Virus record (IMG/VR): IMGVR_UViG_2574180227_000019 | Direction: 5' to 3' (one strand) | Length of the DNA stretch: 33,201 nt | DNA from: a virus | Taxonomy: Duplodnaviria; Heunggongvirae; Uroviricota; Caudoviricetes | Part shown: positions 1 to 33,201 of the stretch, in pieces | How the letters are laid out: the number at the start of each line of letters is the position of its first letter | How positions within the stretch are numbered: the first letter of the stretch is position 1 | The notes under the pieces: model-generated | Seen by the model: the letters and a program-made list of their open reading frames with translations, nothing else | What the model was told of the DNA's origin: nothing | Databases searched by the model: none | Made by a program: the position numbers and the translations under genes

Positions 1-18
1 AACCTCGGTTTACGGGAA
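1..18. other. Partial gix-like inversion crossover site (18 of about 26 bp; remainder left of the window)
   Basis: aacctcggtttacgggaa is the reverse complement of ttcccgtaaaccgaggtt, the first 18 bp of the complete site at 1418..1443; the two copies are in inverted orientation. Confidence 0.55.
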
Positions 19-387
19 ACGGTAAACAGGGCGGCGAATGCCCTGCCATCGAACGGAACGGCCGTTGCCGCGAACAGGCTGGCAAATGCCCACACAATTA
101 ATGGTGTTCCCTTTGACGGAACGCAGGATATCAACATTACCTCCGGTATGACCGAAGCTGCTGCTGATAACAAATACGTTCGCAACGTTCAGCTTGGTGC
201 CCAGAGTTACCATTCACCCGGAGGTAATGAAATGTCCTGGAGTTATGGCGCGCCTTCCGGTTGTATGCTTTCAGGTATTAACGTGCAGGAGACCGGGAGA
301 AATTCAGCCGATAATATCGGAGGCGTTTATTACCGTCCGGTGCAGATATATATCGGTAATGCCTGGCGCACAGTTTCATCCGTCTGA
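1..387 (+). CDS. Alternative tail-fibre C-terminal cassette (S'v-like), promoterless and without its own start; would be fused to the constant fibre N-terminus after inversion
   Basis: Frame 1 from position 1 reads NLGLRETVNRAANALPSNGTAVAANRLANAHTINGVPFDGTQDINITSGM..., homologous to residues from about 195 of the minus-strand tail fibre (NLGLRETVNKAADALPSGGTAVAANRLATPRNINGVPFDGTRDINITSGM...), then diverges. Stop at 385-387. In frame across the gix-like site. Confidence 0.6.
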   Translation, partial: NLGLRETVNRAANALPSNGTAVAANRLANAHTINGVPFDGTQDINITSGMTEAAADNKYVRNVQLGAQSYHSPGGNEMSWSYGAPSGCMLSGINVQETGRNSADNIGGVYYRPVQIYIGNAWRTVSSV

Positions 388-395
388 TTAAAGGA

Positions 396-418
396 AAAGG
401 GTGCGATAAGCACCCTTT
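396..418. terminator. Bidirectional hairpin between convergent fibre cassette and tail-fibre assembly gene
   Basis: Perfect 9 bp stem aaagggtgc / gcacccttt (396-404 / 410-418) with 5 nt loop gataa, lying between the stop at 387 (plus) and the stop at 422 (minus); T/A-rich flanks. Confidence 0.45.
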
Positions 419-421
419 ACG

Positions 422-964
422 TTATTCAGGCTTCTCCGGCCATTTAATGTCGTCAAATTCAGCTTTGTTTTTAATCGCTGGTAGTTCCATTTTTTTCACC
501 TGACTGATGTATGCCATCCATCGGGTAAGTGCGGCTCTGTCTTCATCACTGATGGTGCCCAGCTGTAATTCTGTTCTCCAGTCATTAATTTTTTCATATG
601 CCTGATTAAGATATGACTGGCGCATTGCTTCCAGTTTTCTTGCGTAGTTAACCGGAATACGGGAGATCACGCCATTATCAAACTTCCAGTTACCCGAAAT
701 ATCAGCACCTTCAGGGAGTTCGTCGACTTCAACCACAGAGAACCCCGCAGGATACAGCGCCGAAGCGTCCTGTGATATTGAGCAGATAATGCCGCTGTCA
801 GGTGTTATACAAAGTTTATATTTTTTTGTGAATAATGGCAGGGACTCGTAGAAATCCTTACCATCTTCACTCTGAAAATACTGTACATCATTACCATAGA
901 GGGTATTTTCCGGGTAATATCGTTTAACATTAATCAGTTGCATAAACATCACCATGTGAATCAA
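422..964 (-). CDS. Tail-fibre assembly protein (Tfa / Mu U-like)
   Basis: Translation has ...SEDGKDFYE...DASALYPAGFSVVEVDELPEGADISGNWKFDNGVISRI... and a C-terminal WPEKPE, resembling the Mu U / Tfa family as remembered. The track start is a TTG; a nearby in-frame ATG is equally plausible. Confidence 0.75.
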   Translation of the reverse strand: MIHMVMFMQLINVKRYYPENTLYGNDVQYFQSEDGKDFYESLPLFTKKYKLCITPDSGIICSISQDASALYPAGFSVVEVDELPEGADISGNWKFDNGVISRIPVNYARKLEAMRQSYLNQAYEKINDWRTELQLGTISDEDRAALTRWMAYISQVKKMELPAIKNKAEFDDIKWPEKPE

Positions 965-1063
965 TGATAAAAACAGGAATAATACTATCGCTATATACGG
1001 ACAGGGGTTGTCTGAGATAACGCATATATCAGGCGCTGCCTGCCGTACGCCATGAGCCGTTAA

Positions 1064-2017
1064 TTAAATACTTGCAGCGGATACCCAATTCCCATTAATA
1101 CAATATTGTATCTGTCTGTAATAAACACGGTCATCACCACCACGCATTTCCCAGTCTCCGTCAGTCTTAAAACCGGTAATCACATTTCCTGATGACAGGG
1201 AGTAATTATATTCCAGTACGCCGCTTAATGCCTGCGCTCCCAGTCTTACCCCTGTAACATAACGCTGATTGGCCGTTGATTCCGGCATTCCTGACGTAAT
1301 GTTTATATCCCGCGTCCCGTCGAAAGGAACACCATTAATATTTCTTGGGGTGGCGAGTCTGTTTGCTGCCACGGCGGTTCCCCCCGATGGCAGGGCATCA
1401 GCGGCCTTATTTACCGTTTCCCGTAAACCGAGGTTATCGATAAAGGCACTTCTGTTTGCAATGTCAGAACCATTTGACGCAACCTTAAGATATGACCCAT
1501 CACTTTGTTCGCGACTATATGAACCAATATCTGCGCCGCTTTTCAGATAACGCCGATCACCTTCTTCTTTACTGTAAACCCCAAGGTTGGTACGGGCCGC
1601 AACTTTATCGGGTACGTCAGACAAATTTTTGCTTTTTTCAAGCGCACCAACATCTGTTGGTGAAAGCTTATCTTTTGTCGCCAGAGTCCCCAGCCCAAGA
1701 GCTTTTCTGGCATTCGCCTGAGCACCAGCTCCCGCATCCTCGATTTCTTTCAGGTTGTTTTTACGTAAAAAAGCATTGGCCGTAATAATGGCCTTGATTG
1801 CCAGTGTAAGCTGATTCAGCTTCATTTTATCTGGTTGAATTTTTCCTTCAGTCAAAATCGCAAGCAATTCTGCCTGAATGATATTAAGCCAGTCCTGCCC
1901 GATATGGCTGATACCTTTATTACCGTCGCCTTCCGTAAACCACTTAACTTCAGTACCCTGCGATGGAGCCAGCGCTGGCATCTCTGTCGTACCGGTATTG
2001 TTATCCACGAAATACAT
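1064..2017 (-). CDS. Tail-fibre protein (constant N-terminal part about 194 aa plus variable C-terminal part Sv)
   Basis: 317 aa ORF, ATG at 2015-2017 overlapping the upstream stop (TAATG). A gix-like site sits inside the gene at the constant/variable junction; the C-terminal part is homologous to the plus-strand cassette at 1..387. Confidence 0.8.
   Translation of the reverse strand: MYFVDNNTGTTEMPALAPSQGTEVKWFTEGDGNKGISHIGQDWLNIIQAELLAILTEGKIQPDKMKLNQLTLAIKAIITANAFLRKNNLKEIEDAGAGAQANARKALGLGTLATKDKLSPTDVGALEKSKNLSDVPDKVAARTNLGVYSKEEGDRRYLKSGADIGSYSREQSDGSYLKVASNGSDIANRSAFIDNLGLRETVNKAADALPSGGTAVAANRLATPRNINGVPFDGTRDINITSGMPESTANQRYVTGVRLGAQALSGVLEYNYSLSSGNVITGFKTDGDWEMRGGDDRVYYRQIQYCINGNWVSAASI
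1418..1443. other. gix-like crossover site for a Gin/Hin/Cin-family serine invertase
   Basis: ttcccgtaaacc-ga-ggttatcgataa: 26 bp, two 12 bp imperfect inverted half-sites around a central GA. Closely resembles the gix site as I recall it (TTCCTGTAAACCGAGGTTTTGGATAA). Inverted partner at 1..18. Confidence 0.6.
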
Positions 2018-2574
2018 TATTCCGTCTCCTCATGCGACTTTTCGTAAATGTATAAAAACGTCTGCCAGGCCGGTTTATACCGGTTTAAAATGCATTCCAG
2101 CGCACCACCTTCATATATCCGCAGAGGCGTCAGAATGTGATCGAGCACATGCATGTGACGATACCCAACCTCGCTTTTTACGGTCACAATACTGATCCAC
2201 TGCGATTCCGGTGATGGCTGAATATCAATCACATAGCCAAATTCAGCCGCAAACCGGATATAAAACTCGCGGTTCAGTGACGGCTTCATACGGTATTTAT
2301 TCGCCGCGTATCGCTGGCGCTCCTGCAACGTTGCTCCTGCCATATCACATTCAGGCAACCCCAGATAACGCTCCCAGTCCTCCAGTAACATCCGGGATGT
2401 TTCCGGAAAGCGCTCCGAAAGTAACTGATTAGCCGTCCAGGATACACGCTCGGTGGCGTGACTTAGCCCAAGACATAAGGCTGACAACACGGATTCAGGA
2501 CGTTTATCCCATGCCAGGCCATCGGGTAGGAGCTGCAACAATGCGCGCTGATGAGCTGCAAGCGTCAGAGCCAT
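2017..2574 (-). CDS. Tail/baseplate protein (Mu gp48-like)
   Basis: 185 aa ORF immediately upstream of the tail fibre, ATG at 2572-2574, overlaps its neighbours; position matches Mu gp48. Call is by synteny. Confidence 0.55.
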   Translation of the reverse strand: MALTLAAHQRALLQLLPDGLAWDKRPESVLSALCLGLSHATERVSWTANQLLSERFPETSRMLLEDWERYLGLPECDMAGATLQERQRYAANKYRMKPSLNREFYIRFAAEFGYVIDIQPSPESQWISIVTVKSEVGYRHMHVLDHILTPLRIYEGGALECILNRYKPAWQTFLYIYEKSHEETE

Positions 2575-3650
2575 GTAATTTCTCCCACCGTCAGCAATTC
2601 AGCATCACCAGCCATAACCGATTTGAGGGGGCTGCGGACTTCAAAATCCTCAAGATTTTTCACACCTGCCACGGTTCGCCAGAATGAAGACGGAAGAACC
2701 AGGGCCCCCGGGCTTGATTCGTTATACAACAGGTCTGTCAGCGCCTGCTTTACAGCAGCCTGGTTCTCCGGCGTTTTCGGGACTATGCGGATTTCAAAAT
2801 CCACGGGCTTATTCGTTAACTTAAAGACCTTTACCGTTGGTCCCAGTGGCTGTCCGACGGGTTGCCCCGTTGCTGGATCATCATGGCTACGGATATATTC
2901 CGCCACGCGCTGTACGTCACCTTCGCCGGGGAAAATATCAGGGTTGTTATCCTGAACAAAGGTCACTCCAACGCTGCCAGCCTGAGGCCATTCCGGTTTA
3001 CACCATGCACGGGTTACCCCCGGAACTTCACGCGCCCAGCGCTCAAAATCATACTGCGTACCACCGGATGGTGGATTCTGTACACGAAACACCAGGCGGG
3101 ACAGCAATTCCGGGACTGACTCAACATCCGCACCTCCGGTGATCCCCGTACCGGTAATGGTGGCTGTCTGATTTATACCCGCCTGCGGGGTGACGAACGT
3201 CAGGGGGGTACCTGCTGGGGCATTACCGGAACGACCTGCATTTTCCGCTTCAACCTGCACGGTCAGGGTTCCGGCCTTTCCGGTAACAGACCCGGTGATG
3301 CGGTACACCTCACCATCACTGCGCTGAAGTTGTACCCCTTCGGTCACCCCGGCATCTGTCGTCAGCATCAACTGGACGGGACCATCGCCACGTGATGCCG
3401 GTTTACGGATCACACCCCAGAAGGAACAGTGTTTCAGCAGTTCAGCCTCGTCTGCTTCTGTCGGAATAATCTGCCTGGCAATCCAGGCAAGGTGCTCATG
3501 CTCCTGCGCAGACAACCCGGCCTGAGCATATGCAATGGCATTTAATGTTGTTTCACTCACACCCGGCTGGGAACCGGGAAGACGCTGGCTGATATCCTGC
3601 TGTGTCTGGGTGATCAGTTGCGCCAGTGGCAAGGGCTGATAAGGCATCAT
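2565..3650 (-). CDS. Baseplate J-like protein (Mu gp47-like)
   Basis: 361 aa ORF, ATGA overlap with the upstream gene; size and position match the baseplate J family in Mu-like tails. Confidence 0.7.
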   Translation of the reverse strand: MMPYQPLPLAQLITQTQQDISQRLPGSQPGVSETTLNAIAYAQAGLSAQEHEHLAWIARQIIPTEADEAELLKHCSFWGVIRKPASRGDGPVQLMLTTDAGVTEGVQLQRSDGEVYRITGSVTGKAGTLTVQVEAENAGRSGNAPAGTPLTFVTPQAGINQTATITGTGITGGADVESVPELLSRLVFRVQNPPSGGTQYDFERWAREVPGVTRAWCKPEWPQAGSVGVTFVQDNNPDIFPGEGDVQRVAEYIRSHDDPATGQPVGQPLGPTVKVFKLTNKPVDFEIRIVPKTPENQAAVKQALTDLLYNESSPGALVLPSSFWRTVAGVKNLEDFEVRSPLKSVMAGDAELLTVGEITWL

Positions 3651-4084
3651 TCCCCCTTAATATCAGCATAAAAAATCATGGGTTCCCGACTGCCGTCCGG
3701 CAGCGTGATTTCAACAAATAATGAAAGTTGCTCGTGCGCCGTTCGTTCAGCACGACACACAACATCCGATGCAACGCCGCTCTGACGAAGCCATGCCAGC
3801 GCCTCATCCGCATACGCCTGTGCACGACTTACCACCGAAGTAAGCGTTTTTTCCCGGCTCAGCAACCACAGACGGGAGCCTATGGGGTATTCCCGGAAGC
3901 TGTCACCCCACCATCCACGGCGATCGCGGGTACCATCTGGTATGACATCTGATGCCAGGGCTCGACGATCAGTAAACAGTGAGATAATCACTGCCGTCTG
4001 CAATGTATTGTCTGTCAGAAGATCTGCGCCATTCAGTTGCAGTGCACCATGCCCCTGTTTCCATATCACGGCAATATCAGCCAT
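3647..4084 (-). CDS. Baseplate protein (Mu gp46-like)
   Basis: Start re-chosen at the ATG at 4082-4084 (MADIAVIWKQ...), preceded by GGAGGA; the longer track ORF (to 4213) would overlap the upstream gene by about 135 nt. Confidence 0.6.
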   Translation of the reverse strand: MADIAVIWKQGHGALQLNGADLLTDNTLQTAVIISLFTDRRALASDVIPDGTRDRRGWWGDSFREYPIGSRLWLLSREKTLTSVVSRAQAYADEALAWLRQSGVASDVVCRAERTAHEQLSLFVEITLPDGSREPMIFYADIKGE

Positions 4085-4691
4085 TTTCCGGTCCTCCTGT
4101 TTTACTTCCTTTGCCGTTGTCATGGTGCACATGTCCGGAATAGGTGATCCCCGCAATCTTGGCTTCAGACATAGTAAATGTGCCTTTTGACATACCGGTT
4201 CCATCGATCGCAAGATTGCCTTTCACATGCAGATTTTTTTCCACGATGACATCGCCGGTGAAGACCGTTTCAGGGGTATCAACGCTCACGCGCTCATCAG
4301 CAAAAATCTCAAGCGTCCGGCAGGTGATGATGATGCGTCCGTCTTTTGTCAGGCGAATGCGGTGCCCTTCGTAGTGATAAAGCCCACTGTCGCCGGAAGT
4401 CAGCCCGGATGGGCGGTAACGCCGGTCATCAACCACCAGAACAACGGCCTGATCACGCTGACCACCAGGACAGGCGAAGAATAGCTCCGCCCCCGGTAAG
4501 GGTACGCTGATTTGTCCGTACTGCTGTGGCCGTTCAACATCATCAAACGTTTCCCCCTCCATTCCGGTAAGCTGTACATTCTGCATTTTCAGCTCATCAC
4601 GGATACCGGTAAGAACCCCCCGTCCAATCAGAAGACGCACCCCACGCATAACGGGGGCTATAAGGCGGCTGAAAACCTCTTCATTTATCAT
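4077..4691 (-). CDS. Baseplate assembly / spike protein (gpV-like, Mu gp45-like)
   Basis: 204 aa ORF, ATG at 4689-4691; position between the gpD/P-like gene and gp46-like gene. Confidence 0.6.
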   Translation of the reverse strand: MINEEVFSRLIAPVMRGVRLLIGRGVLTGIRDELKMQNVQLTGMEGETFDDVERPQQYGQISVPLPGAELFFACPGGQRDQAVVLVVDDRRYRPSGLTSGDSGLYHYEGHRIRLTKDGRIIITCRTLEIFADERVSVDTPETVFTGDVIVEKNLHVKGNLAIDGTGMSKGTFTMSEAKIAGITYSGHVHHDNGKGSKTGGPENG

Positions 4692-5811
4692 TAAAGGTGA
4701 TCCCCTGTTTTTTCATCTGCTGATGGATAAAGGCATCCACGCCACCGGCATCATTTCCGCCCCGACCTTTACTGTCAGGCTCCGCAGGAACAATAAAACC
4801 ATCACGGGGGGCAAGAATCAGCCGCGTGGTTTCGCCTTTTTGTGCGTCCAGGGAGAATTCAACCTGGCAAATCAGCAGATCACGCTGGTCAATACCAAAC
4901 CGTGAAGCGGTAACGCGCGTCAGCAGATTAAGATCCCACAACGTGCCGTCTGAGCGGAACCAGGTACGCACCACGGCGGTAAAGCGGGAGGAACGGGCCA
5001 CTGCCCGGCGCATTTCCCGTAATCCCCGCTGTGTGGCTCCGCTGGTATCAATGTGATGATCGGCGAGAACAATTTTCGGACGGTAACGGGTAACACCTTC
5101 GTCATTCACCACCCCGACCGGTGCAGACAGGCTGGCTGGTTTTGCGCTGTCACCGGATTTGCCGCCTCCGCGCCCGTGTCCTCTGATTCGGTATTCGCTG
5201 TAGCGCATACGGTGGTCATCGTTATAAATGGCCTCAAGCAAATTCTCACCCAGTACAAGCGTATCGGTCTGCTTGCTTCCAGCCTGAGTAAAAACCAGTT
5301 CACCCACAGCGTTACTGGTTACCAGAACCCCACGATGCCGTGCGGCTCGTGTGAGTGCATCCGCCACTGTTTCTGAGTTCTCAAGCGTGAAAGATGCGAA
5401 CGGTTTCTCTGCCGTGACATCATTAACCTGCCAGCGAACGCTGATACCAAACGGCGCACACAAATCAGCGGCTATCTGGGCCAGCGTCCGGTTCCGCCAC
5501 TGACTTCCCTGGTGAACAGCAGAGCAGTCAACCAGATCACCTGTTTTATCGCGGCCACTGATAGTAATTTGATAACGCGTGGCGCTGATACTCTGATTCA
5601 CCTGATCCAGCCAGCCGCTGATGACTGTCTGACCGTTAATTTTCAGTGTCACTGACTGACCGGGCGAGATGATCGCCGGAACCGGTTCACCGGGGAGCAT
5701 AAGGCCCAGCTCGAATGATCCCGCAAGATGTTCAAGAGAACGTCGTACACTGACCGTCACCCAGCCGGTAAAAATCTGGCTGCCAAGATACAGCTCCACT
5801 TTACTGTTCAC
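4681..5811 (-). CDS. Tail protein P (late control gene D / gpD family, baseplate hub)
   Basis: 376 aa ORF, GTG start at 5809-5811 with GGAGG six nt upstream; N-terminus MNSKVELYLGSQIFTGW... is typical of the gpD/Mu P family as remembered. Confidence 0.65.
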   Translation of the reverse strand: MNSKVELYLGSQIFTGWVTVSVRRSLEHLAGSFELGLMLPGEPVPAIISPGQSVTLKINGQTVISGWLDQVNQSISATRYQITISGRDKTGDLVDCSAVHQGSQWRNRTLAQIAADLCAPFGISVRWQVNDVTAEKPFASFTLENSETVADALTRAARHRGVLVTSNAVGELVFTQAGSKQTDTLVLGENLLEAIYNDDHRMRYSEYRIRGHGRGGGKSGDSAKPASLSAPVGVVNDEGVTRYRPKIVLADHHIDTSGATQRGLREMRRAVARSSRFTAVVRTWFRSDGTLWDLNLLTRVTASRFGIDQRDLLICQVEFSLDAQKGETTRLILAPRDGFIVPAEPDSKGRGGNDAGGVDAFIHQQMKKQGITFNDK

Positions 5812-7216
5812 TGATCACCTCCACAGTACTTCCCCCCGGCACAAAAAGCGGGTCTGAAATGTTGTTACGACGCACAAAATGTTGCCAGCGGGTGCTGTTT
5901 CCTGTTTCACGGTACAGGGTTACCAGTGCAGGTTCTGTCGCCCGGACGGATACCTGTACAGCCCCCGGCAGGGAGACCGCCCTGACCGTAAGATCTTCTG
6001 TCAACGCCAGGCGGGCATCCCTGAGAGTCAGGGCTGTGGAGGTATACCCCAGCGCAGACAAATCCATGACCTGTAATTCAAGCGCATCACTCAAATCACG
6101 GTTGATACGCTCAACATCTGCGGCACTTTCCAGCCAGACAAGACCGGCTGACTTCGTGTTATTACTTGTCCGGGCTGTTTCAAGACTGATTACCTGATCC
6201 AGCAATTTTCCCACTGTCTGAGCCTGAGACACCACGGCTGCACTCTGCATCACTGCCCTGAGAAGCCGGATATTTTGTTGAGCTGGCGGGGTAAGCCCAA
6301 TCAGACGCTGTGGATCATCCTGTTCTGTCAGCGCATAACGCAGGGAGGATAAGGTTCTGTAGAGCTGAGGAAGTCCCTGTTCAAGGGTGCTCTGCATCAC
6401 CACATCCAGACTCCCTGCGGGCAATTCGCCTCCACTGCCTCTGGTGTAAACCGTACCGCCATTCCCCCCGGAAGCACCGGTTACGGTACTGCCGGTATTC
6501 TTCCGGGTAAGGGAGAGCGCAGGGATCGTGGGTAATGCCGTCAGGGTGACAAACATACCCGCCAGTGATTCCGCCATTCGCTGCGGACTTGTGAGCAATG
6601 CGGTAACGTTACCTTTAAGCGCCGTAAACGTGGCCGTAAAGGCACTGATATCCTGCACAATCCCCATCCCGGAAACGGAATTTTCCAGCGCCTCAATTTT
6701 GTCACTGATGGTTTCAGCCATTGCCTGCACATCATGCATACCATCGGAAATGACGGTCCAGCCACTTGCCAGCGTACCAAACATGCTGTTCAGGGCTGCA
6801 CCACTTCTGGCCTCCAGAAGTGCAGCCGTATCCTGGCTGGCCGTTGGCGCTGTTTCATCACTGACCGGAGACACATTAATTGTGAATTCAACAATGCGCT
6901 GTTCATCGGCGCTGTAACGGCTTTCAAAGCTGTTTATCATCACGTTTAAAGTGCCATATTCCGGGTGCATAAGTTCACCCGGCCCGGGGGCGCGAAGGGC
7001 ATCCCGAAGACGGCTTCGTTGCGTGTGAACATCCTCTCCCATCACCAGTACGGTGAAGGTGTATTCCGGCAGTTTTGGCCCCAGATCATCTGCACCGCCC
7101 CGTTCCTGTAACGGATATTCCCGGCGAACGATATTACGCCCACCGCGTTCACGCTGTTCGCGAAATACCAGGAATGGCACACCGCGAAACGACCCCTTGC
7201 CGTCACCAGTGGACAT
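5801..7216 (-). CDS. DNA circularisation protein N-like (Mu gp43-like)
   Basis: Start re-chosen at the ATG at 7214-7216 (MSTGDGKGSFRGVPFLVF...) with GGAGGT upstream, overlapping the tape-measure stop (ATGTCCACTGGTGA); the track's N-terminal extension is rejected. Confidence 0.6.
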   Translation of the reverse strand: MSTGDGKGSFRGVPFLVFREQRERGGRNIVRREYPLQERGGADDLGPKLPEYTFTVLVMGEDVHTQRSRLRDALRAPGPGELMHPEYGTLNVMINSFESRYSADEQRIVEFTINVSPVSDETAPTASQDTAALLEARSGAALNSMFGTLASGWTVISDGMHDVQAMAETISDKIEALENSVSGMGIVQDISAFTATFTALKGNVTALLTSPQRMAESLAGMFVTLTALPTIPALSLTRKNTGSTVTGASGGNGGTVYTRGSGGELPAGSLDVVMQSTLEQGLPQLYRTLSSLRYALTEQDDPQRLIGLTPPAQQNIRLLRAVMQSAAVVSQAQTVGKLLDQVISLETARTSNNTKSAGLVWLESAADVERINRDLSDALELQVMDLSALGYTSTALTLRDARLALTEDLTVRAVSLPGAVQVSVRATEPALVTLYRETGNSTRWQHFVRRNNISDPLFVPGGSTVEVISEQ

Positions 7217-9269
7217 AGTTACCTCCGTTCCAGACATCCACATCCAGCGAACTGCCGGAGGTTTCATTGATATCAATACTTCTTGCGCTCCAGCCATCCG
7301 GGGCAACCAGCTCCACACGGGCAGAAGCCTGTTCAGCGGCTTTTCCTCCGCTGTTATCGGTATCCCCCCGTAGTTTTTGCCAGGCTTCTGTCAGCCAGCC
7401 GCCGAGATAATTACCGAGATAACTTCCCACCGTTGAACCGATAGCCACGCCGACAGGTCCTGCCGCAGCTCCCAGCGCTCCACCGGCAATGCTGCCAGCA
7501 AGAGAGCCGACAGCCTCCCCCTTGTTGGTAGCACTGGCACTATCGTCCAGCAGGACAGGGGCGGCCATCGCCCCGGCCCAAAGGGCTCCACCGCCCAAAC
7601 GACCGGCAACCCCACCGGCACGGCGGAAAAGGCCGGAGAAACGCCCCATACCCAGCCGGTTACCGGCGGATGAAAGCAAGCCACCGGCACGGCTCATCAT
7701 GCGCCCGAAGAAGCCCTGAGGGGGTGAGGCTGGCGGCGTTGCCGGTACAGTAACAACCGACGTCACCGGGCGTCCGCGCCCCGGCCCGCGTCTGGTGCGT
7801 CCACGCTGACGTTTTCCTTCACCTCCGCTGATCACATCAGAAACGCCCCCCGCCATGGCACCGGCTGGCCAGTTCATGACATTTACGGGCTGAATGGCTG
7901 CGGGGTTAACCCCCGTCAGAAAATTCAGGAACCGACCGCCACGCCCCGGTATGGTTTCGGGAACGGTGGTCTGTGGTTTGCGGAAGGGGGAGGTCAGAAC
8001 AGAAGCGGTGGACATGCCCCAGCGAAGCGGTGTTGCACCAAGACGCAGCGCACTTCCACCAACAGCCCTGACCAGTTTCAGTGCCCGGGTGGCCAGATAC
8101 ATATACAGCAGATATTTCGCAGCTGTCTGTGCACCACGAGCGATACCGTCCAGCGTATCGCCATACCCTGCATCACGCAGCGCCTGAAGCGTTTCCCGTA
8201 CCTTCTGAATAGCCCGGTAAAAACCAGTTGCCGCATCACGGGCATACTCAAAGCCCTGATTCAGGGCACCCGCTGTCTGTGCCGCCAGTTTTTCCTGAAG
8301 ACCGCTGGACTTTGCCTCATCAGCATAATCCAGAAAGCCTTTAAGGCTGTTTTTAAGGCTGTCAAAAGGTCCTTTGGCCATGACGTCACGGGCAAAGTCA
8401 TCCCATACATCCCCCATCATGGCAGTCATGCCCGTCCAGGAGTTCATGGCATTTTTCTGTGCACCTTTTGCCTGTTCTGCCATGACCTGGAACAGGAGAC
8501 GAATGCTGTCCGGTCCCAGCTTACCTTTGCTACCCAGATCACGAAGTACTTTCTGATCAACTTTCAGTTTTTCAGCCAGCAACTGATAAACGTTGATACC
8601 GTAGCCCGTCAGAATACTGGCATCAGCCGCCTGAATTGCACCACGGGAATACATCTGTTTGAGCTGAAGGGATGCGCCCTGCGCGTCAGCAAGGGACCAG
8701 CCGTGATAGCCCCCCTGATCCTGAAGCATGGTGATAAAGTTACGTGCTTCCTTATCACTCATACCAAAACCACGGCTGGAAGCGTATTCCTGCATAACGC
8801 CAGCCAGCCCCCACGTGGTTTCTTTTGCATTCTGGACAGCCCACTTACGGACGTCTTCTGTTCTGGATGTATCACCATGATTGATGGCATTGAGACGAAG
8901 AATGTAATTCTCCATCTCTGATGCGGGACGAAGAAAAGCCTTGTTAAATCCGTACGCAGCCGCACCACCGGCCAGCATCCCGTAAAGGTTGCTGATACGT
9001 CCCAGCGTACCGGTAATACTTCCCTGAAGCCGGTCAAAATCAGAGGTGACTGAACGGATACTGCCACGGACTCCGGCAAGCATACGTTGCATACGGGTGC
9101 CAACAAGATCAGTTTCCTGACCGGCACGACGGGCTGCATTACCCAGACCACCCAGCCCCGACTGTCCGGAACGGGAAAATGCCCCCAGCTCCTGCGACCA
9201 CTGGCGAGATTTAGCGGAAATATTGCCGAGCAGATCGACTATCAGGGAGGCTTTCAGATTTTTTGCCAT
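7203..9269 (-). CDS. Tail tape measure protein
   Basis: 688 aa ORF downstream of tube and chaperone; Gly/Ala-rich C-terminal region; correct position in a contractile-tail module. Confidence 0.8.
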   Translation of the reverse strand: MAKNLKASLIVDLLGNISAKSRQWSQELGAFSRSGQSGLGGLGNAARRAGQETDLVGTRMQRMLAGVRGSIRSVTSDFDRLQGSITGTLGRISNLYGMLAGGAAAYGFNKAFLRPASEMENYILRLNAINHGDTSRTEDVRKWAVQNAKETTWGLAGVMQEYASSRGFGMSDKEARNFITMLQDQGGYHGWSLADAQGASLQLKQMYSRGAIQAADASILTGYGINVYQLLAEKLKVDQKVLRDLGSKGKLGPDSIRLLFQVMAEQAKGAQKNAMNSWTGMTAMMGDVWDDFARDVMAKGPFDSLKNSLKGFLDYADEAKSSGLQEKLAAQTAGALNQGFEYARDAATGFYRAIQKVRETLQALRDAGYGDTLDGIARGAQTAAKYLLYMYLATRALKLVRAVGGSALRLGATPLRWGMSTASVLTSPFRKPQTTVPETIPGRGGRFLNFLTGVNPAAIQPVNVMNWPAGAMAGGVSDVISGGEGKRQRGRTRRGPGRGRPVTSVVTVPATPPASPPQGFFGRMMSRAGGLLSSAGNRLGMGRFSGLFRRAGGVAGRLGGGALWAGAMAAPVLLDDSASATNKGEAVGSLAGSIAGGALGAAAGPVGVAIGSTVGSYLGNYLGGWLTEAWQKLRGDTDNSGGKAAEQASARVELVAPDGWSARSIDINETSGSSLDVDVWNGGNYVHW

Positions 9270-31110: not shown

Positions 31111-33201
31111 TCAGGCCAGCGGGTCATTTTCTTTTAATTTCGCTTCCAGCAACTGCAATCCCCGCTGGAAATTACGCTCGTATTCTTCATCAGGTTCATC
31201 ATCAACGGCAGGTTGCTGAACGGCCACCGTATTACCCACCGGGCGGTAGATGTTTTCCAGCCATGGCTCCTGCGGCTTGTGCTCCAGCACGTTGACAACC
31301 TCATCCTCGGCATCACGGATTTTTTCCTCTGCGCGTTTACGCATACCTTTAAGGCGCTGCTGCTGTTTGTAGTATTCCGCGCTGACCGGGAAGGCTTCGC
31401 GTTTATTGCCGTCCCATACCGCCTCGCAAATCACGCTGCCATCCGGGCGACGTACGGTAATTCGTTCGGCATCATGAATGTCATAGCTGATAAGCACTTT
31501 GCGGCCATGTTCATCACGCAGCTCGGGCGCGTAGTAAATATTATTCAGCCAGCGTATTTCACAGCGTCTTACAGGGCGTTCCACCATCGGCCGGAACATG
31601 TCCCGCAATTCCACATCGGACAGCCATTCAATTTCCGTGTCCTCTTCTGCCAGGCGTTTTTTTCTGAACTCCGCCGGGCTGTAATGTTTACCGTTCGGCT
31701 TCATGGGTAATTCATCGTGCGGCCGGTTGTTGTACCACTCAACGCCGTCACGAATGGCATCAATCAGTTCAGACCAGGACGGTAAATCACGCATCGCTGA
31801 CTGCTGCCGGGCGTTCAGCCGCTTGCCCTGTTGCAGGGCAGTGAATGCCGAGCGTAAATCGCGGTTGGTTTTGCGTAACGTCTCGCGATCTGCACCTTTC
31901 CCGAAATAGGTGCGGTATTTACGGGCTATGCGCATCGGTAATGTGCGGTTAAGCCGTTCGATAATGCCCCGTCCCTGCGGATTACCGGCAATCCCGGTCG
32001 GGTGATTAATCCCCAGTCGCGGTAGTATCCCCACAATCTCCTTATCCAGGATGTCGGCGGTTTCCCCGGAGCCATTATCCGAGTAATACAGAAACGGTTT
32101 GCCGTGATGTCGAATACCGTGCTGTATGGCACCGGCTACGGCGAAAACATTTTCAGCCAGGTCAAGGCTCCAGCCCACCACAAAGCGTGTACCGCCATCG
32201 ATAACAAAGGTTACTTCCGGTGCAAATGGCCGCCCGTGAACCGGGTGCCTGCATTTCAGCTTCATGCCGTGACCGTCACCAATCCAGACATAGTTCACCG
32301 GCATTCTGGACCAGTCGCGGCGCGTGAATCCCTCAAGCTGGCGGTATTCACTGCCGGTCACCCGGCCTTTTTGTTTCACCACTTCCGGCAGTTTCTTCAT
32401 TGCGCGGCGAATGGTGTCATAAGACGGCATGATATCGAGCATATAAGGCTCATCAGCGTGCCGGTGCTGCCATTCAGCAACAAAATCCTCGTAAGCCTCG
32501 GTCATTGGTCGGCCGTTTGACTGGCGATACTGCGCCAGAAATTCGGGCAGCCAGTTAATATCTTCGGCTTTTATTTCCTGACGTTTACCCGGTGCCAGTA
32601 AAAGCAGGCGTTCAGCGGCGTTCTGTGCCTTGTTAAAGGCCGCAATCCAGCGTTTCAGCGTGATTTCACTCAACACGCGGCTGTTTCCCTTTTTGGCGTT
32701 CGCCGTCTCAACCATTGCCACTATGCGCTCGTCCAGTTGTGAGCGTGACAGGCGGTCAACGATAAAACGGATGGCTCTAGCGCAGCTGAAACCGGGTTGT
32801 TGCGCGAATTTCAGCACCTCGCTGACAATCGCGATTCGTGCCTCTGCCACCTGGCGCTGTTTTTCAGTCAGGGCATTGAGGCGTTCGACCATCAGTTGTG
32901 GTGAACCGCGATATGCCTCCACCGCATCAACCACGTCAGGTGAGCGTCTGGCCTTTGTCACCACCGGAACCGGTGATTCATCGACTTTTTGAGTCATCAG
33001 TTGCAGGGCGTAGCGTTCACGTAATGCCTGCTGCGTCACTTCAGGTAAACAGTCGATGCTGTATTCAGTTGCTTTAGAGCCTGAGCGACGACGGGAACAA
33101 CAGCTTTTCCCTTGTACGTAACGTTGTAATGCCTGGCGAATACCTTTTGTTGTAGCAGGCATTCCGGGCGCGCCAATCAGTTCTTTTGCAATGACATACA
33201 T
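31111..33201 (-). CDS. A: DDE transposase A (MuA-like); start at or just beyond the window edge
   Basis: 696 aa; N-terminus MYVIAKELIGAPGMPATTKGIRQA... parallels the MuA N-terminal DNA-binding domain as remembered; followed by the B gene as in Mu. The ATG falls on the last 3 nt of the window. Confidence 0.85.
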   Translation of the reverse strand: MYVIAKELIGAPGMPATTKGIRQALQRYVQGKSCCSRRRSGSKATEYSIDCLPEVTQQALRERYALQLMTQKVDESPVPVVTKARRSPDVVDAVEAYRGSPQLMVERLNALTEKQRQVAEARIAIVSEVLKFAQQPGFSCARAIRFIVDRLSRSQLDERIVAMVETANAKKGNSRVLSEITLKRWIAAFNKAQNAAERLLLLAPGKRQEIKAEDINWLPEFLAQYRQSNGRPMTEAYEDFVAEWQHRHADEPYMLDIMPSYDTIRRAMKKLPEVVKQKGRVTGSEYRQLEGFTRRDWSRMPVNYVWIGDGHGMKLKCRHPVHGRPFAPEVTFVIDGGTRFVVGWSLDLAENVFAVAGAIQHGIRHHGKPFLYYSDNGSGETADILDKEIVGILPRLGINHPTGIAGNPQGRGIIERLNRTLPMRIARKYRTYFGKGADRETLRKTNRDLRSAFTALQQGKRLNARQQSAMRDLPSWSELIDAIRDGVEWYNNRPHDELPMKPNGKHYSPAEFRKKRLAEEDTEIEWLSDVELRDMFRPMVERPVRRCEIRWLNNIYYAPELRDEHGRKVLISYDIHDAERITVRRPDGSVICEAVWDGNKREAFPVSAEYYKQQQRLKGMRKRAEEKIRDAEDEVVNVLEHKPQEPWLENIYRPVGNTVAVQQPAVDDEPDEEYERNFQRGLQLLEAKLKENDPLA

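What the first reader, a model, noticed from the sequence alone, without database searches (positions are those of the whole stretch)
1..1443. Gin/Hin-type invertible tail-fibre segment with a gix-like site cut by the window edge
A 26 bp site (1418..1443, ttcccgtaaacc-GA-ggttatcgataa) lies inside the tail-fibre gene at the constant/variable boundary, and its inverted copy begins the window (1..18). About 150 bp of flanking homology continues inward from both sites in mirror orientation. Inversion would swap the current fibre C-terminus for the plus-strand cassette at 1..387, which is in frame across the site. This is a host-range switch of the Mu G-segment / P1 C-segment type; the invertase gene and the rest of the left site should lie just left of position 1.
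Basis: partly seen in the sequence, partly recalled or inferred. Interest (0 to 1): 0.6.

Follow-up and report, generated by a model that had tools for sequence, protein, structure and literature searches.

The report
Gin-type invertible tail-fibre switch, Mu-like prophage
The left end of this window is a DNA-flipping host-range switch of an E. coli Mu-like prophage, the same kind as phage Mu's G segment, so it is real but ordinary apart from being unusually compact and carrying only one fibre-chaperone gene instead of two.

Summary
The observation and the interpretation are both confirmed. Window 1418-1443 (TTCCCGTAAACC-GA-GGTTATCGATAA) matches phage Mu gixR at 23 of 26 positions with the same GA core. 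It lies in the fibre gene (1064-2017, minus strand) at the constant/variable boundary. Window 1-18 is its inverted copy, and arms 1-156 and 1280-1435 are 78% identical. Two contigs identical to the window over 8,017 nt supply the missing 8 bp of the left site. They also carry a 186-aa serine invertase gene starting 62 nt left of position 1. That protein is 75% identical to Gin and keeps the catalytic Ser9 and the Fis-contact residues. A 99.5%-identical prophage in two complete E. coli genomes carries the 1,435-bp segment at 99.9-100% identity but flipped. There the constant part is fused in frame to the cassette at 1-387. Among 5,426 complete E. coli genomes, 15 are flipped and 12 are in the window state. 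The segment is a compact G segment: cassette A (1-387, +), a hairpin, one Mu-U-like chaperone gene (422-943, -), and cassette B (1064-1435, -). Mu, e14 and three P2-like or Mu-like phages all have two chaperone genes. How the chaperone is expressed in the flipped state is unresolved. Verdict: a new member of a known kind, of low to moderate interest.

The parts
1..18 (.). Inner 18 bp of the left (invertase-proximal) crossover site. The full site is ATCCCTGAAACC-TC-GGTTTACGGGAA; its outer 8 bp lie outside the window. The central dinucleotide TC is at positions 5-6.
   Evidence: Reverse complement of 1418-1435. The outer 8 bp were read from contigs L010 and L012, identical to the window over 8,017 nt. 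The full site matches Mu gixR at 20 of 26 positions.
1..387 (+). Cassette A: a silent, promoterless alternative fibre C-terminus of 128 codons (stop at 385-387). After inversion it is joined in frame to the constant part.
   Evidence: Open frame. It is 50% identical to cassette B. The fused 322-aa protein is annotated in L001 and L004 and is seen on 96 public contigs. dN/dS is 0.06-0.12 between lineages. Its tip resembles the phage phiTE short-tail-fibre tip, 9CUY_c (E = 3e-15). A TGA codon lies immediately upstream in frame in the flank, so it is not translated in the window state.
1..156 (.). Left arm of the inverted repeat (pairs with 1280-1435).
   Evidence: 122 of 156 positions identical; score 54 against a shuffle maximum of 20.
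391..423 (.). GC-rich hairpin between the converging stops of cassette A and tfa; a likely bidirectional intrinsic terminator.
   Evidence: Inverted repeat I8. RNA fold of -24.7 kcal/mol (z = -3.7) on the plus strand. Fold of -18.9 kcal/mol (z = -2.9) on the minus strand, followed there by UUUUCCUUUAAU. Terminator function is inferred.
422..943 (-). tfa: the single tail-fibre assembly (chaperone) gene, 173 aa from the ATG at 943 (alternative upstream starts at 955 and 964). It is a homologue of Mu U.
   Evidence: Pfam Caudo_TAP, E = 3e-19. Matches Mu U in the fibre-chaperone crystal structure 5YVQ_B, E = 2e-17. Annotated as tail fiber assembly protein in all related records.
944..1063 (-). A 120-nt non-coding spacer between the cassette B stop and the tfa start (in Mu the S-U gap is 2 nt). 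Its function is unknown.
   Evidence: It is 120-121 nt in the window, L002 and L007 lineages, but 79 nt and unrelated in L005. No conserved or above-chance promoter was found.
1064..1435 (-). Cassette B: the currently expressed variable C-terminus of the fibre (123 codons plus stop). Its tip is of the Mu S type.
   Evidence: Part of the 317-aa ORF. Residues 249-316 align with Mu S 436-503 in 5YVQ_A.
1280..1435 (.). Right arm of the inverted repeat.
1418..1443 (.). Complete right crossover site, TTCCCGTAAACC-GA-GGTTATCGATAA, inside the fibre gene at the constant/variable boundary. It encodes ...F-I-D-N-L-G-L-R-E... The central dinucleotide GA is at 1430-1431.
   Evidence: Matches Mu gixR at 23 of 26 positions. 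The breakpoint between window-state and flipped genomes falls within this site.
1436..2017 (-). Constant part of the fibre gene (Sc, 194 codons), outside the invertible DNA.
   Evidence: Residues 1-110 align with Mu S 1-110, and residues 178-217 with Mu S 152-191 across the gix-encoded motif. This stretch is 99.5% identical to L001 whatever the segment orientation.
1064..2017 (-). The whole tail-fibre gene in the window's state (317 aa), a shortened homologue of Mu S that lacks roughly S residues 192-435.
   Evidence: The exact protein is found on 24 or more public contigs, all with the invertase gene beyond the segment.

Best explanation
This is the invertible host-range segment (a compact G segment) of an Sp18-type Mu-like prophage of E. 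coli. A Gin-family serine invertase is encoded 62 nt left of the window. It binds as dimers to two inverted 26-bp gix-like sites, one inside the fibre gene (1418-1443) and one next to its own gene (window 1-18 plus 8 bp outside). It cuts both at the central GA/TC dinucleotide and rotates the roughly 1,425 bp between them. By analogy with Gin and Hin, this probably needs host Fis bound to an enhancer in the 5' end of the invertase gene. Inversion replaces the last 123 residues of the 317-aa fibre (a Mu-S-type tip, cassette B) with 128 different residues (cassette A). A lysogen population therefore releases phage with two receptor specificities. The segment carries a single Mu-U-like chaperone gene, co-directional with cassette B and convergent with cassette A, separated from A by a terminator-like hairpin.

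Shown: the sites, the in-frame cassettes, the neighbouring invertase, both orientations occurring in nature, and homology to Mu S, U and Gin.

Inferred: catalysis at the GA core, Fis/enhancer dependence, different receptor specificities, and one chaperone serving both tips.
For: The inverted repeat and the site are far beyond chance. The site matches Mu gixR at 23 of 26 positions with an identical core. Contigs identical to the window over 8,017 nt supply the rest of the left site and a 186-aa Resolvase+HTH_7 gene. That protein is 75% identical to Mu Gin and aligns over residues 1-182 with Gin structure 3UJ3 at E = 2e-91. It keeps Ser9, R42, K46, R47 and K50, and the Q/R/L of DNA-binding-domain helix 1. 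PMC3798978 reports these residues as uniquely conserved in Fis/enhancer-dependent invertases.

Two Fis-like motifs lie at gene nt 22-36 and 71-85. They are nearly invariant across this gene, gin and pinE. Synonymous-site conservation is higher there (11/21 vs 21/79, Fisher p = 0.025).

L001 and L004 carry the same prophage (99.5% identical flank) with the segment at 99.9-100% identity but inverted. The breakpoints fall in the sites and the fusion is in frame. Of complete E. coli genomes, 15 are flipped and 12 are in the window state, with both states inside the same sequence subgroups. The exact flipped fusion protein is on 96 contigs and the exact window-state protein on 24.

The fibre is a Mu S homologue and tfa a Mu U homologue. 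Cassette A stays open in all lineages with dN/dS of about 0.1 at dS > 0.9. Each locus has exactly two sites.
Against: The invertase gene and 8 bp of the left site are not in the window itself; they are inferred from identical contigs. No read-level or experimental evidence of flipping within one culture was obtained. Draft contigs that end inside the site, and stand-alone 1.4-kb segment contigs, could arise from the inverted repeat alone at small k. The enhancer is supported only by conservation. In the flipped state tfa is antisense to the fibre operon, and no promoter for it was found, so it is not shown that cassette A fibres can be assembled. The outer half-site next to the invertase gene is degenerate (ATCCCTGAAACC).
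Confidence: 0.93

Rival explanations
1. The orientation polymorphism comes from occasional RecA-dependent homologous recombination between the 156-bp inverted repeats, and the invertase plays no current role (a fossil switch).
For: The two states share a 26-nt perfectly identical block at the boundary, so the sequences cannot place the crossover at the GA dinucleotide as opposed to elsewhere in that block. L015 shows a gene-conversion tract at window 27-37 in one arm, so homologous exchange between the arms does occur.
Against: The arms are only 78% identical, with 26 nt of perfect identity, which is a poor RecA substrate. In every lineage examined the boundary coincides with the gix-like site, not with other identical blocks of the arms. 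The invertase ORF is intact, with catalytic and Fis-contact residues, in all loci. The two states are about equally frequent and are interspersed within near-identical lineages, which indicates frequent switching.
Confidence: 0.04
2. The switch is effectively ON/OFF and does not choose between two functional fibres. Only the window orientation (cassette B followed by tfa) yields assembled fibres. In the flipped state tfa is not transcribed and cassette A fibres fail to fold.
For: There is only one tfa gene. It is co-directional with cassette B and convergent with cassette A in all family members. A hairpin between cassette A and tfa would stop read-through. No promoter for tfa was detected. 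Mu, e14, P88, Cartapus, Chris1 and the CP066032 prophage all supply one chaperone per cassette.
Against: Cassette A is under strong purifying selection (dN/dS 0.06-0.12 at dS 0.9-2.4) and is open in every lineage, so it is translated and useful over evolutionary time. The same Tfa allele (L005 and L007, very similar by eye; identity not computed) is paired with unrelated cassette B tips, one of them A-like. This suggests a promiscuous chaperone that could serve both tips. The 80-120-nt spacer upstream of tfa leaves room for an undetected (for example activator-dependent) promoter.
Confidence: 0.15
3. The apparent inverted arrangement is an assembly artefact at an inverted repeat.
For: Draft assemblies often break at this site: 193-201-aa truncated fibre proteins on about 29 contigs, and stand-alone 1,425-1,442-nt segment contigs.
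Against: Both orientations occur in closed, complete genomes and in many independent assemblies from different sources. Both junction types give clean in-frame genes.
Confidence: 0.01

Closest known systems
Phage Mu G segment with Gin and gix sites
   Same: It sits in a Mu-like genome at the same map position (gp47, gp48, S, then the segment, then the invertase, then com and a mom-like or methylase gene). The site matches gixR at 23 of 26 positions, has the same GA core, and lies at the same place in the fibre reading frame (FIxNLGLxETVN). The invertase is 75% identical to Gin. The fibre N-terminus and cassette B tip are homologous to Mu S, and the chaperone to Mu U.
   Different: The segment is 1.4 kb, not 3.0 kb. 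The variable parts are 123-128 aa, not about 330 aa, and Mu S residues ~192-435 are absent. There is one chaperone gene, not U plus U'. A 120-nt spacer precedes the chaperone gene and a hairpin separates it from cassette A. The invertase-side outer half-site is degenerate, whereas Mu's two sites lie in a 41-nt inverted repeat that is 93% complementary. Cassette A is not S'-like.
e14 P segment with PinE (E. coli K-12); also P1 C segment with Cin
   Same: A serine invertase sits next to an invertible segment that swaps fibre C-termini. A YmfQ/gp48-family gene lies upstream. The first 90 nt of pinE are nearly identical to this invertase gene at the two Fis-like motifs.
   Different: e14 has the symmetric layout stfP-tfaP / tfaE-stfE, with two chaperone genes. 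The e14 site core found here is TT, not GA/TC. P1 was not examined here; its similarity rests on general knowledge.
P2-like and Mu-like cultured phages with Gin-like invertases (Cartapus, P88, Chris1)
   Same: Their invertases are 74-76% identical to this one, next to an invertible fibre and chaperone region.
   Different: All three have two convergent chaperone genes, each paired with its own fibre cassette.
Carotovoricin Er tail-fibre inversion (Ein invertase; Nguyen et al. 2001)
   Same: A compact invertase-driven swap of fibre C-termini that changes killing range. The inversion is cited in PMC13195805. The ~790-bp size and 26-bp repeats are recalled from memory and were not checked.
   Different: It is a tailocin of P2 ancestry in Pectobacterium. 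Its chaperone arrangement could not be checked because the paper is not held.

Membership tests
Gin/Hin/Cin/Pin DNA-invertase systems (Fis/enhancer-dependent serine invertases) | A small (~190 aa) serine recombinase with an N-terminal resolvase catalytic domain (active-site Ser9/10) and a C-terminal HTH, encoded next to the invertible segment | tested here: met
   The gene is not in the window. It is in contigs identical to the window over 8,017 nt, 62 nt left of position 1: 186 aa, Resolvase E = 1e-51 plus HTH_7 E = 2e-14, Ser9 present, aligned over 1-182 with Gin 3UJ3 at E = 2e-91.
Gin/Hin/Cin/Pin DNA-invertase systems (Fis/enhancer-dependent serine invertases) | Two 26-bp recombination sites in inverted orientation, each made of two imperfect 12-bp half-sites around a 2-bp core that is identical in both sites | tested here: met
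   Right site TTCCCGTAAACC-GA-GGTTATCGATAA (1418-1443). Left site ATCCCTGAAACC-TC-GGTTTACGGGAA (8 bp outside the window plus window 1-18). The cores are GA and its complement TC. The sites match Mu gixR at 23/26 and 20/26. Each locus has exactly two sites.
Gin/Hin/Cin/Pin DNA-invertase systems (Fis/enhancer-dependent serine invertases) | A recombinational enhancer with two Fis sites inside the 5' end of the invertase gene | tested here: inconclusive
   Two G-N13-C Fis-like 15-mers lie at gene nt 22-36 and 71-85, with centres 49 bp apart. They are nearly invariant in this gene, gin and pinE. Synonymous conservation is higher over nt 19-90 (p = 0.025).
Gin/Hin/Cin/Pin DNA-invertase systems (Fis/enhancer-dependent serine invertases) | Residues reported as uniquely conserved in Fis-dependent invertases: Hin R43, K47, K/R48 and K/R51 (helix B), and Q151, R154 and L155 (DNA-binding-domain helix 1) (PMC3798978) | tested here: met
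   R42, K46, R47 and K50, and the Q...RL of 'EQVGRLLA', align with the corresponding Gin residues in the 3UJ3 alignment.
Gin/Hin/Cin/Pin DNA-invertase systems (Fis/enhancer-dependent serine invertases) | The segment is actually found in both orientations | tested here: met
   The segment is 99.9-100% identical and inverted in L001 and L004, within a 99.5%-identical prophage. There are 15 flipped and 12 window-state complete genomes, and 96 vs 24 contigs for the two exact fusion proteins. Coexistence within one culture was not shown.
Mu G-type host-range segments (Sc + Sv-U / U'-S'v) | The crossover site lies inside the tail-fibre gene, so a constant N-terminal part is fused to alternative C-terminal parts | tested here: met
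   The site lies after codon 194 of 317. Both fusions are in frame, and both are annotated or observed as proteins. The fibre is homologous to Mu S on both sides of the site.
Mu G-type host-range segments (Sc + Sv-U / U'-S'v) | Each alternative fibre end is followed by its own co-oriented assembly (chaperone) gene (U and U') | tested here: not met
   There is only one Caudo_TAP / Mu-U-like gene (422-943, minus strand). Just 34 nt, the hairpin, separate the cassette A stop from the tfa stop. The same holds in every family member examined. Mu, e14, P88, Cartapus, Chris1 and CP066032 all have two.
Mu G-type host-range segments (Sc + Sv-U / U'-S'v) | The two orientations give different host ranges | not testable with these tools
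   The tips are only 50% identical. They diverge most in the middle of the tip and resemble different solved fibres: Mu S for B and phiTE short tail fibre for A. Different receptor specificity is inferred only.

The most novel reading that the evidence does not exclude
The one-chaperone layout is a distinct, functional design. A single promiscuous Tfa would serve two different fibre tips. It would have to be expressed independently of segment orientation, for example from an activator-dependent promoter in the 80-120-nt spacer carried on the invertible DNA. Alternatively, the flip would also switch chaperone supply on and off, so that one phase makes Tfa-free fibres. Either case would be a new regulatory solution within invertible host-range segments, and it is widespread in Sp18-type Mu-like prophages of STEC.
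Probability: 0.3. Interest if true: 0.45.

Novelty: new member of a known kind. Interest (0 to 1): 0.25.

Why it matters
It shows that the Sp18-type Mu-like prophages common in Shiga-toxin-producing and other E. coli carry an active-looking Gin/gix host-range switch, so a lysogen can release particles with two receptor specificities. It also explains why automated annotation reports a truncated 'phage tail protein' pseudogene here, and why draft assemblies break at this point. The compact single-chaperone layout raises a small, testable question about how fibre chaperones are supplied and how specific they are. This is relevant to engineering fibre tips. The mechanism itself is textbook.

Tried and rejected
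1. I looked for a promoter that could express tfa in the flipped state. The sigma-70 scans of window 1-2100 and L001 5900-8100 gave no more hits than shuffles. A comparison of the spacer with other late-operon upstream gaps gave no shared motif; an ACCCC-N7-TATATA element in the window is not conserved in L007. The spacer in L005 is unrelated and only 79 nt long.\n\n2. I tested whether the long-read-confirmed Mu-like inversion of Milman et al. 2023 (CP066032) is the same architecture. It is the classical two-chaperone Mu layout.\n\n3. I tried to find the EPEC E2348/69 'Mu prophage' inversion coordinates of Goldberg et al. 2014. They are not in the held text or supplements.\n\n4. I considered stand-alone 1.4-kb contigs, and contigs ending inside the site, as proof of mixed orientation within cultures. 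I rejected this as decisive. The contigs end 5-7 nt inside the core, which is what a k of about 21 graph collapsing the 26-nt perfect repeat would give.\n\n5. North et al. 2019 (Tfa modularity) and Nguyen et al. 2001 (carotovoricin) are not held.\n\n6. The Rfam and tRNA scans of the window found nothing.\n\n7. The plasmid tblastn with the invertase added nothing useful.\n\n8. The 9CUY paper gave no information on chaperone need, because the fibre tip was not modelled.
Full report
**Observation.** Window 1418-1443 reads TTCCCGTAAACC-GA-GGTTATCGATAA. Window 1-18 is the reverse complement of 1418-1435. Perfect identity between the two ends runs for 26 nt (1-26 = rc 1410-1435). The mirror homology continues inward: arms 1-83/1353-1435 and 97-156/1280-1339 are each 83% complementary, and 122 of 156 positions match overall. 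The best inverted-repeat score is 54, against a mean of 11 and a maximum of 20 in 100 dinucleotide-preserving shuffles. The right site lies inside a 317-aa minus-strand ORF (1064-2017), after codon 194. The plus-strand frame from position 1 is open for 128 codons (stop at 385-387) and joins in frame across the site.

**What the genes are.** The window is one arm of a Mu-like prophage. It encodes a MuA-like transposase, MuB, Gam, GemA, Mor, lysis genes, the gpT head protein, tail sheath, a baseplate set (the gp43-48 homologues) and the fibre.
- The 317-aa protein is a shortened homologue of the Mu tail fibre S (PDB 5YVQ_A). Residues 1-110 match S 1-110. Residues 178-217 match S 152-191 across the gix-encoded FIxNLGLxETVN motif. 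Residues 249-316 match the receptor-binding tip, S 436-503. About 245 residues of the Mu S shaft are absent.
- The minus-strand gene at 422-943 is a Caudo_TAP protein homologous to the Mu chaperone U (5YVQ_B, E = 2e-17).
- The silent plus-strand cassette (A, 1-387) is 50% identical to the expressed one (B, 1064-1435). The two share the first ~50 residues and the last ~20, and differ in the middle of the tip.
- The cassette A tip is closest to the tip of the phage phiTE short tail fibre (9CUY_c, E = 3e-15). It is only weakly similar to Mu S and S'.

**The site.** Mu's own G region was fetched. Its gixR is TTCCTGTAAACCGAGGTTTTGGATAA. The window site matches it at 23 of 26 positions, has the same central GA, and sits at the same place in the fibre reading frame.

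**What lies left of position 1.**
- The exact 317-aa protein, which is specific to this orientation, is encoded on many public contigs. Two of them are identical to the window over all 8,017 comparable bases: JACCNS010000002.1 of GCA_013424505.1 and UGCV01000008.1 of GCA_900449405.1.
- In these contigs the 8 bases before position 1 are ATCCCTGA. The complete left site is therefore ATCCCTGAAACC-TC-GGTTTACGGGAA, which matches gixR at 20 of 26 positions.
- A 186-aa gene starts 62 nt from position 1 and is transcribed away from the segment. It has Resolvase and HTH_7 domains. It is 75% identical to Mu Gin and aligns over residues 1-182 with crystallised Gin (3UJ3, E = 2e-91).
- It keeps Ser9, R42/K46/R47/K50, and the Q...RL of DNA-binding-domain helix 1. 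McLean et al. (PMC3798978) report these residues as uniquely conserved in Fis/enhancer-dependent invertases.
- Two Fis-like 15-mers lie at nt 22-36 and 71-85 of the gene. They are almost invariant between this gene, gin and pinE. Synonymous-site identity over nt 19-90 (11/21) exceeds that of nt 181-540 (21/79; Fisher p = 0.025). This fits an embedded enhancer but does not prove one.
- The window edges coincide with gene coordinates: the pseudo-CDS start as annotated in L002, and the MuA ATG. The site is therefore cut by the way the window was drawn, not by an assembly break.

**Evidence that it flips.**
- Two complete E. coli genomes (SW070917 and DETEC-S792) carry the same prophage. The constant side (window 1436-7435) is 99.5% identical in SW070917. 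The 1,435-bp segment is 99.9-100% identical in both but in the opposite orientation. The switch point lies inside the two sites.
- There the constant part is fused to cassette A as an annotated 322-aa protein, and cassette B lies silent next to the invertase gene.
- Two synthetic queries were built from identical sequence, the invertase gene plus the segment in either orientation. At 80% coverage or more, they found 15 flipped and 12 window-state copies among 5,426 complete genomes, with both states inside the same sequence subgroups.
- In the 15-billion-protein collection the exact flipped fusion is on 96 contigs and the exact window-state fusion on 24.
- Draft assemblies often break here. 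There are fibre proteins truncated at ...SAFI...SAFID and ...NLGLRET, and stand-alone contigs of 1,425-1,442 nt that hold only the segment. These contigs end 5-7 nt inside the core, which a small-k graph would produce from the 26-nt perfect repeat alone. I do not count this as proof of mixed cultures.

**Architecture and how it differs from the textbook cases.**
- In the five distinct family members whose segments were translated, the layout is cassette A (+), a 33-nt GC-rich hairpin, tfa (-), an 80-120-nt spacer, and cassette B (-). Each has exactly two sites and only one chaperone gene. The annotation of all related loci fetched agrees.
- Mu, the CP066032 prophage whose inversion was confirmed by long reads in PMC9881135, e14, and phages Cartapus, P88 and Chris1 all have the symmetric layout with one chaperone gene per cassette.
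- Here tfa is co-directional with cassette B and convergent with cassette A. The hairpin folds on both strands, at -24.7 and -18.9 kcal/mol. It would stop the late transcript after cassette A in the flipped state.
- Cassette A is nevertheless not decaying. It is open in all lineages, and dN/dS is 0.06-0.12 at dS 0.9-2.4.
- The cassettes and tfa are mosaic between prophages. Very similar Tfa alleles (L005 and L007) sit next to unrelated cassette B tips, one of them A-like. This suggests a chaperone that is not tip-specific.
- I found no promoter for tfa by consensus scans, motif comparison with other late-operon leaders, or positional conservation. How the chaperone is supplied in the flipped state is the one open mechanistic point.

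**Rivals.**
- Homologous recombination between the arms cannot be excluded from the sequences alone, because the states share 26 identical nucleotides at the boundary. L015 also shows a conversion tract at window 27-37. But the arms are only 78% identical, the boundary is always at the gix-like site, and the invertase is intact everywhere.
- An ON/OFF reading, in which the flipped state is fibre-defective, is disfavoured by the selection on cassette A but is not refuted.
- An assembly artefact is excluded by closed genomes in both states.

**Novelty.** The mechanism and the family are textbook: Gin/gix in a Mu-like phage. Sp18-type Mu-like prophages are known (PMC7430833, PMC2669165). I found no description of their invertible segment or of the one-chaperone layout in the searchable literature. 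That search does not cover most subscription journals. I file it as a new member of a known kind, with an architectural peculiarity worth a small experiment. Interest is 0.25.

Noticed in passing
window 1 and 33201: Both window edges coincide with gene coordinates. Position 1 is where PGAP starts a 5'-truncated 'phage tail protein' pseudogene in a related record (L002 6001-6387). Position 33201 is the ATG of the 696-aa MuA-like ORF. The 'site cut by the window edge' is therefore a consequence of how the window was drawn, not a contig break.
   Followed up: yes
L015 (GCA_037022815.1), equivalent to window 27-37: In this otherwise near-identical copy, the left repeat arm carries the right arm's bases at positions 27, 29, 33, 36 and 37. 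This is a short gene-conversion tract between the arms, and it lengthens the perfect repeat.
   Followed up: partly
L010 8740-10779 (just beyond the invertase gene, outside the window): A 679-aa protein with a SASA (sialate O-acetylesterase-like) domain and DUF6645 follows the invertase gene in all family members. It may be a second receptor-modifying or receptor-binding tail protein. It is followed by small DUF1378 and DUF826 genes.
   Followed up: no
L001 11429-12635 and L010 12011-12954, versus L002 888-1779 and L011 12154-12891: The Com-regulated modification module at the prophage end is interchangeable. Some copies have Com plus Mom. Others, including the copies identical to the window, have Com followed by a DNA cytosine methyltransferase.
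   Followed up: no
window 944-1063: A 120-nt non-coding spacer separates the fibre stop from the chaperone start, where Mu has 2 nt. It is conserved in three lineages but replaced by an unrelated 79-nt spacer in L005. No function was found.
   Followed up: partly
L019, L020, L021 and proteins P0006, P0008, P0015: Public draft and metagenome assemblies frequently break at this switch. The segment appears as a stand-alone contig of 1,425-1,442 nt, and fibre proteins are truncated at residues 193-201, inside the site.
   Followed up: yes
L009 (NZ_CP024056.1), locus 3501-5600: This is a degenerate copy of the locus. The invertase, cassette A and tfa are intact, but the right site and most of the fibre gene are missing. 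It lies next to a truncated sialate O-acetylesterase gene and a tyrosine integrase, so the switch is dead in a prophage remnant.
   Followed up: no
window 1-387 (cassette A tip): The closest solved relative of the silent tip is the C-terminus of the short tail fibre of the flagellotropic Pectobacterium myophage phiTE (9CUY_c residues 457-553, E = 3e-15), not Mu S or S'. No receptor inference can be drawn from this.
   Followed up: partly
cluster (P0010, P0013): The same fibre protein, including the exact-length 317-aa form, is also recorded from Shigella sonnei, so the prophage family is not confined to E. coli sensu stricto.
   Followed up: no
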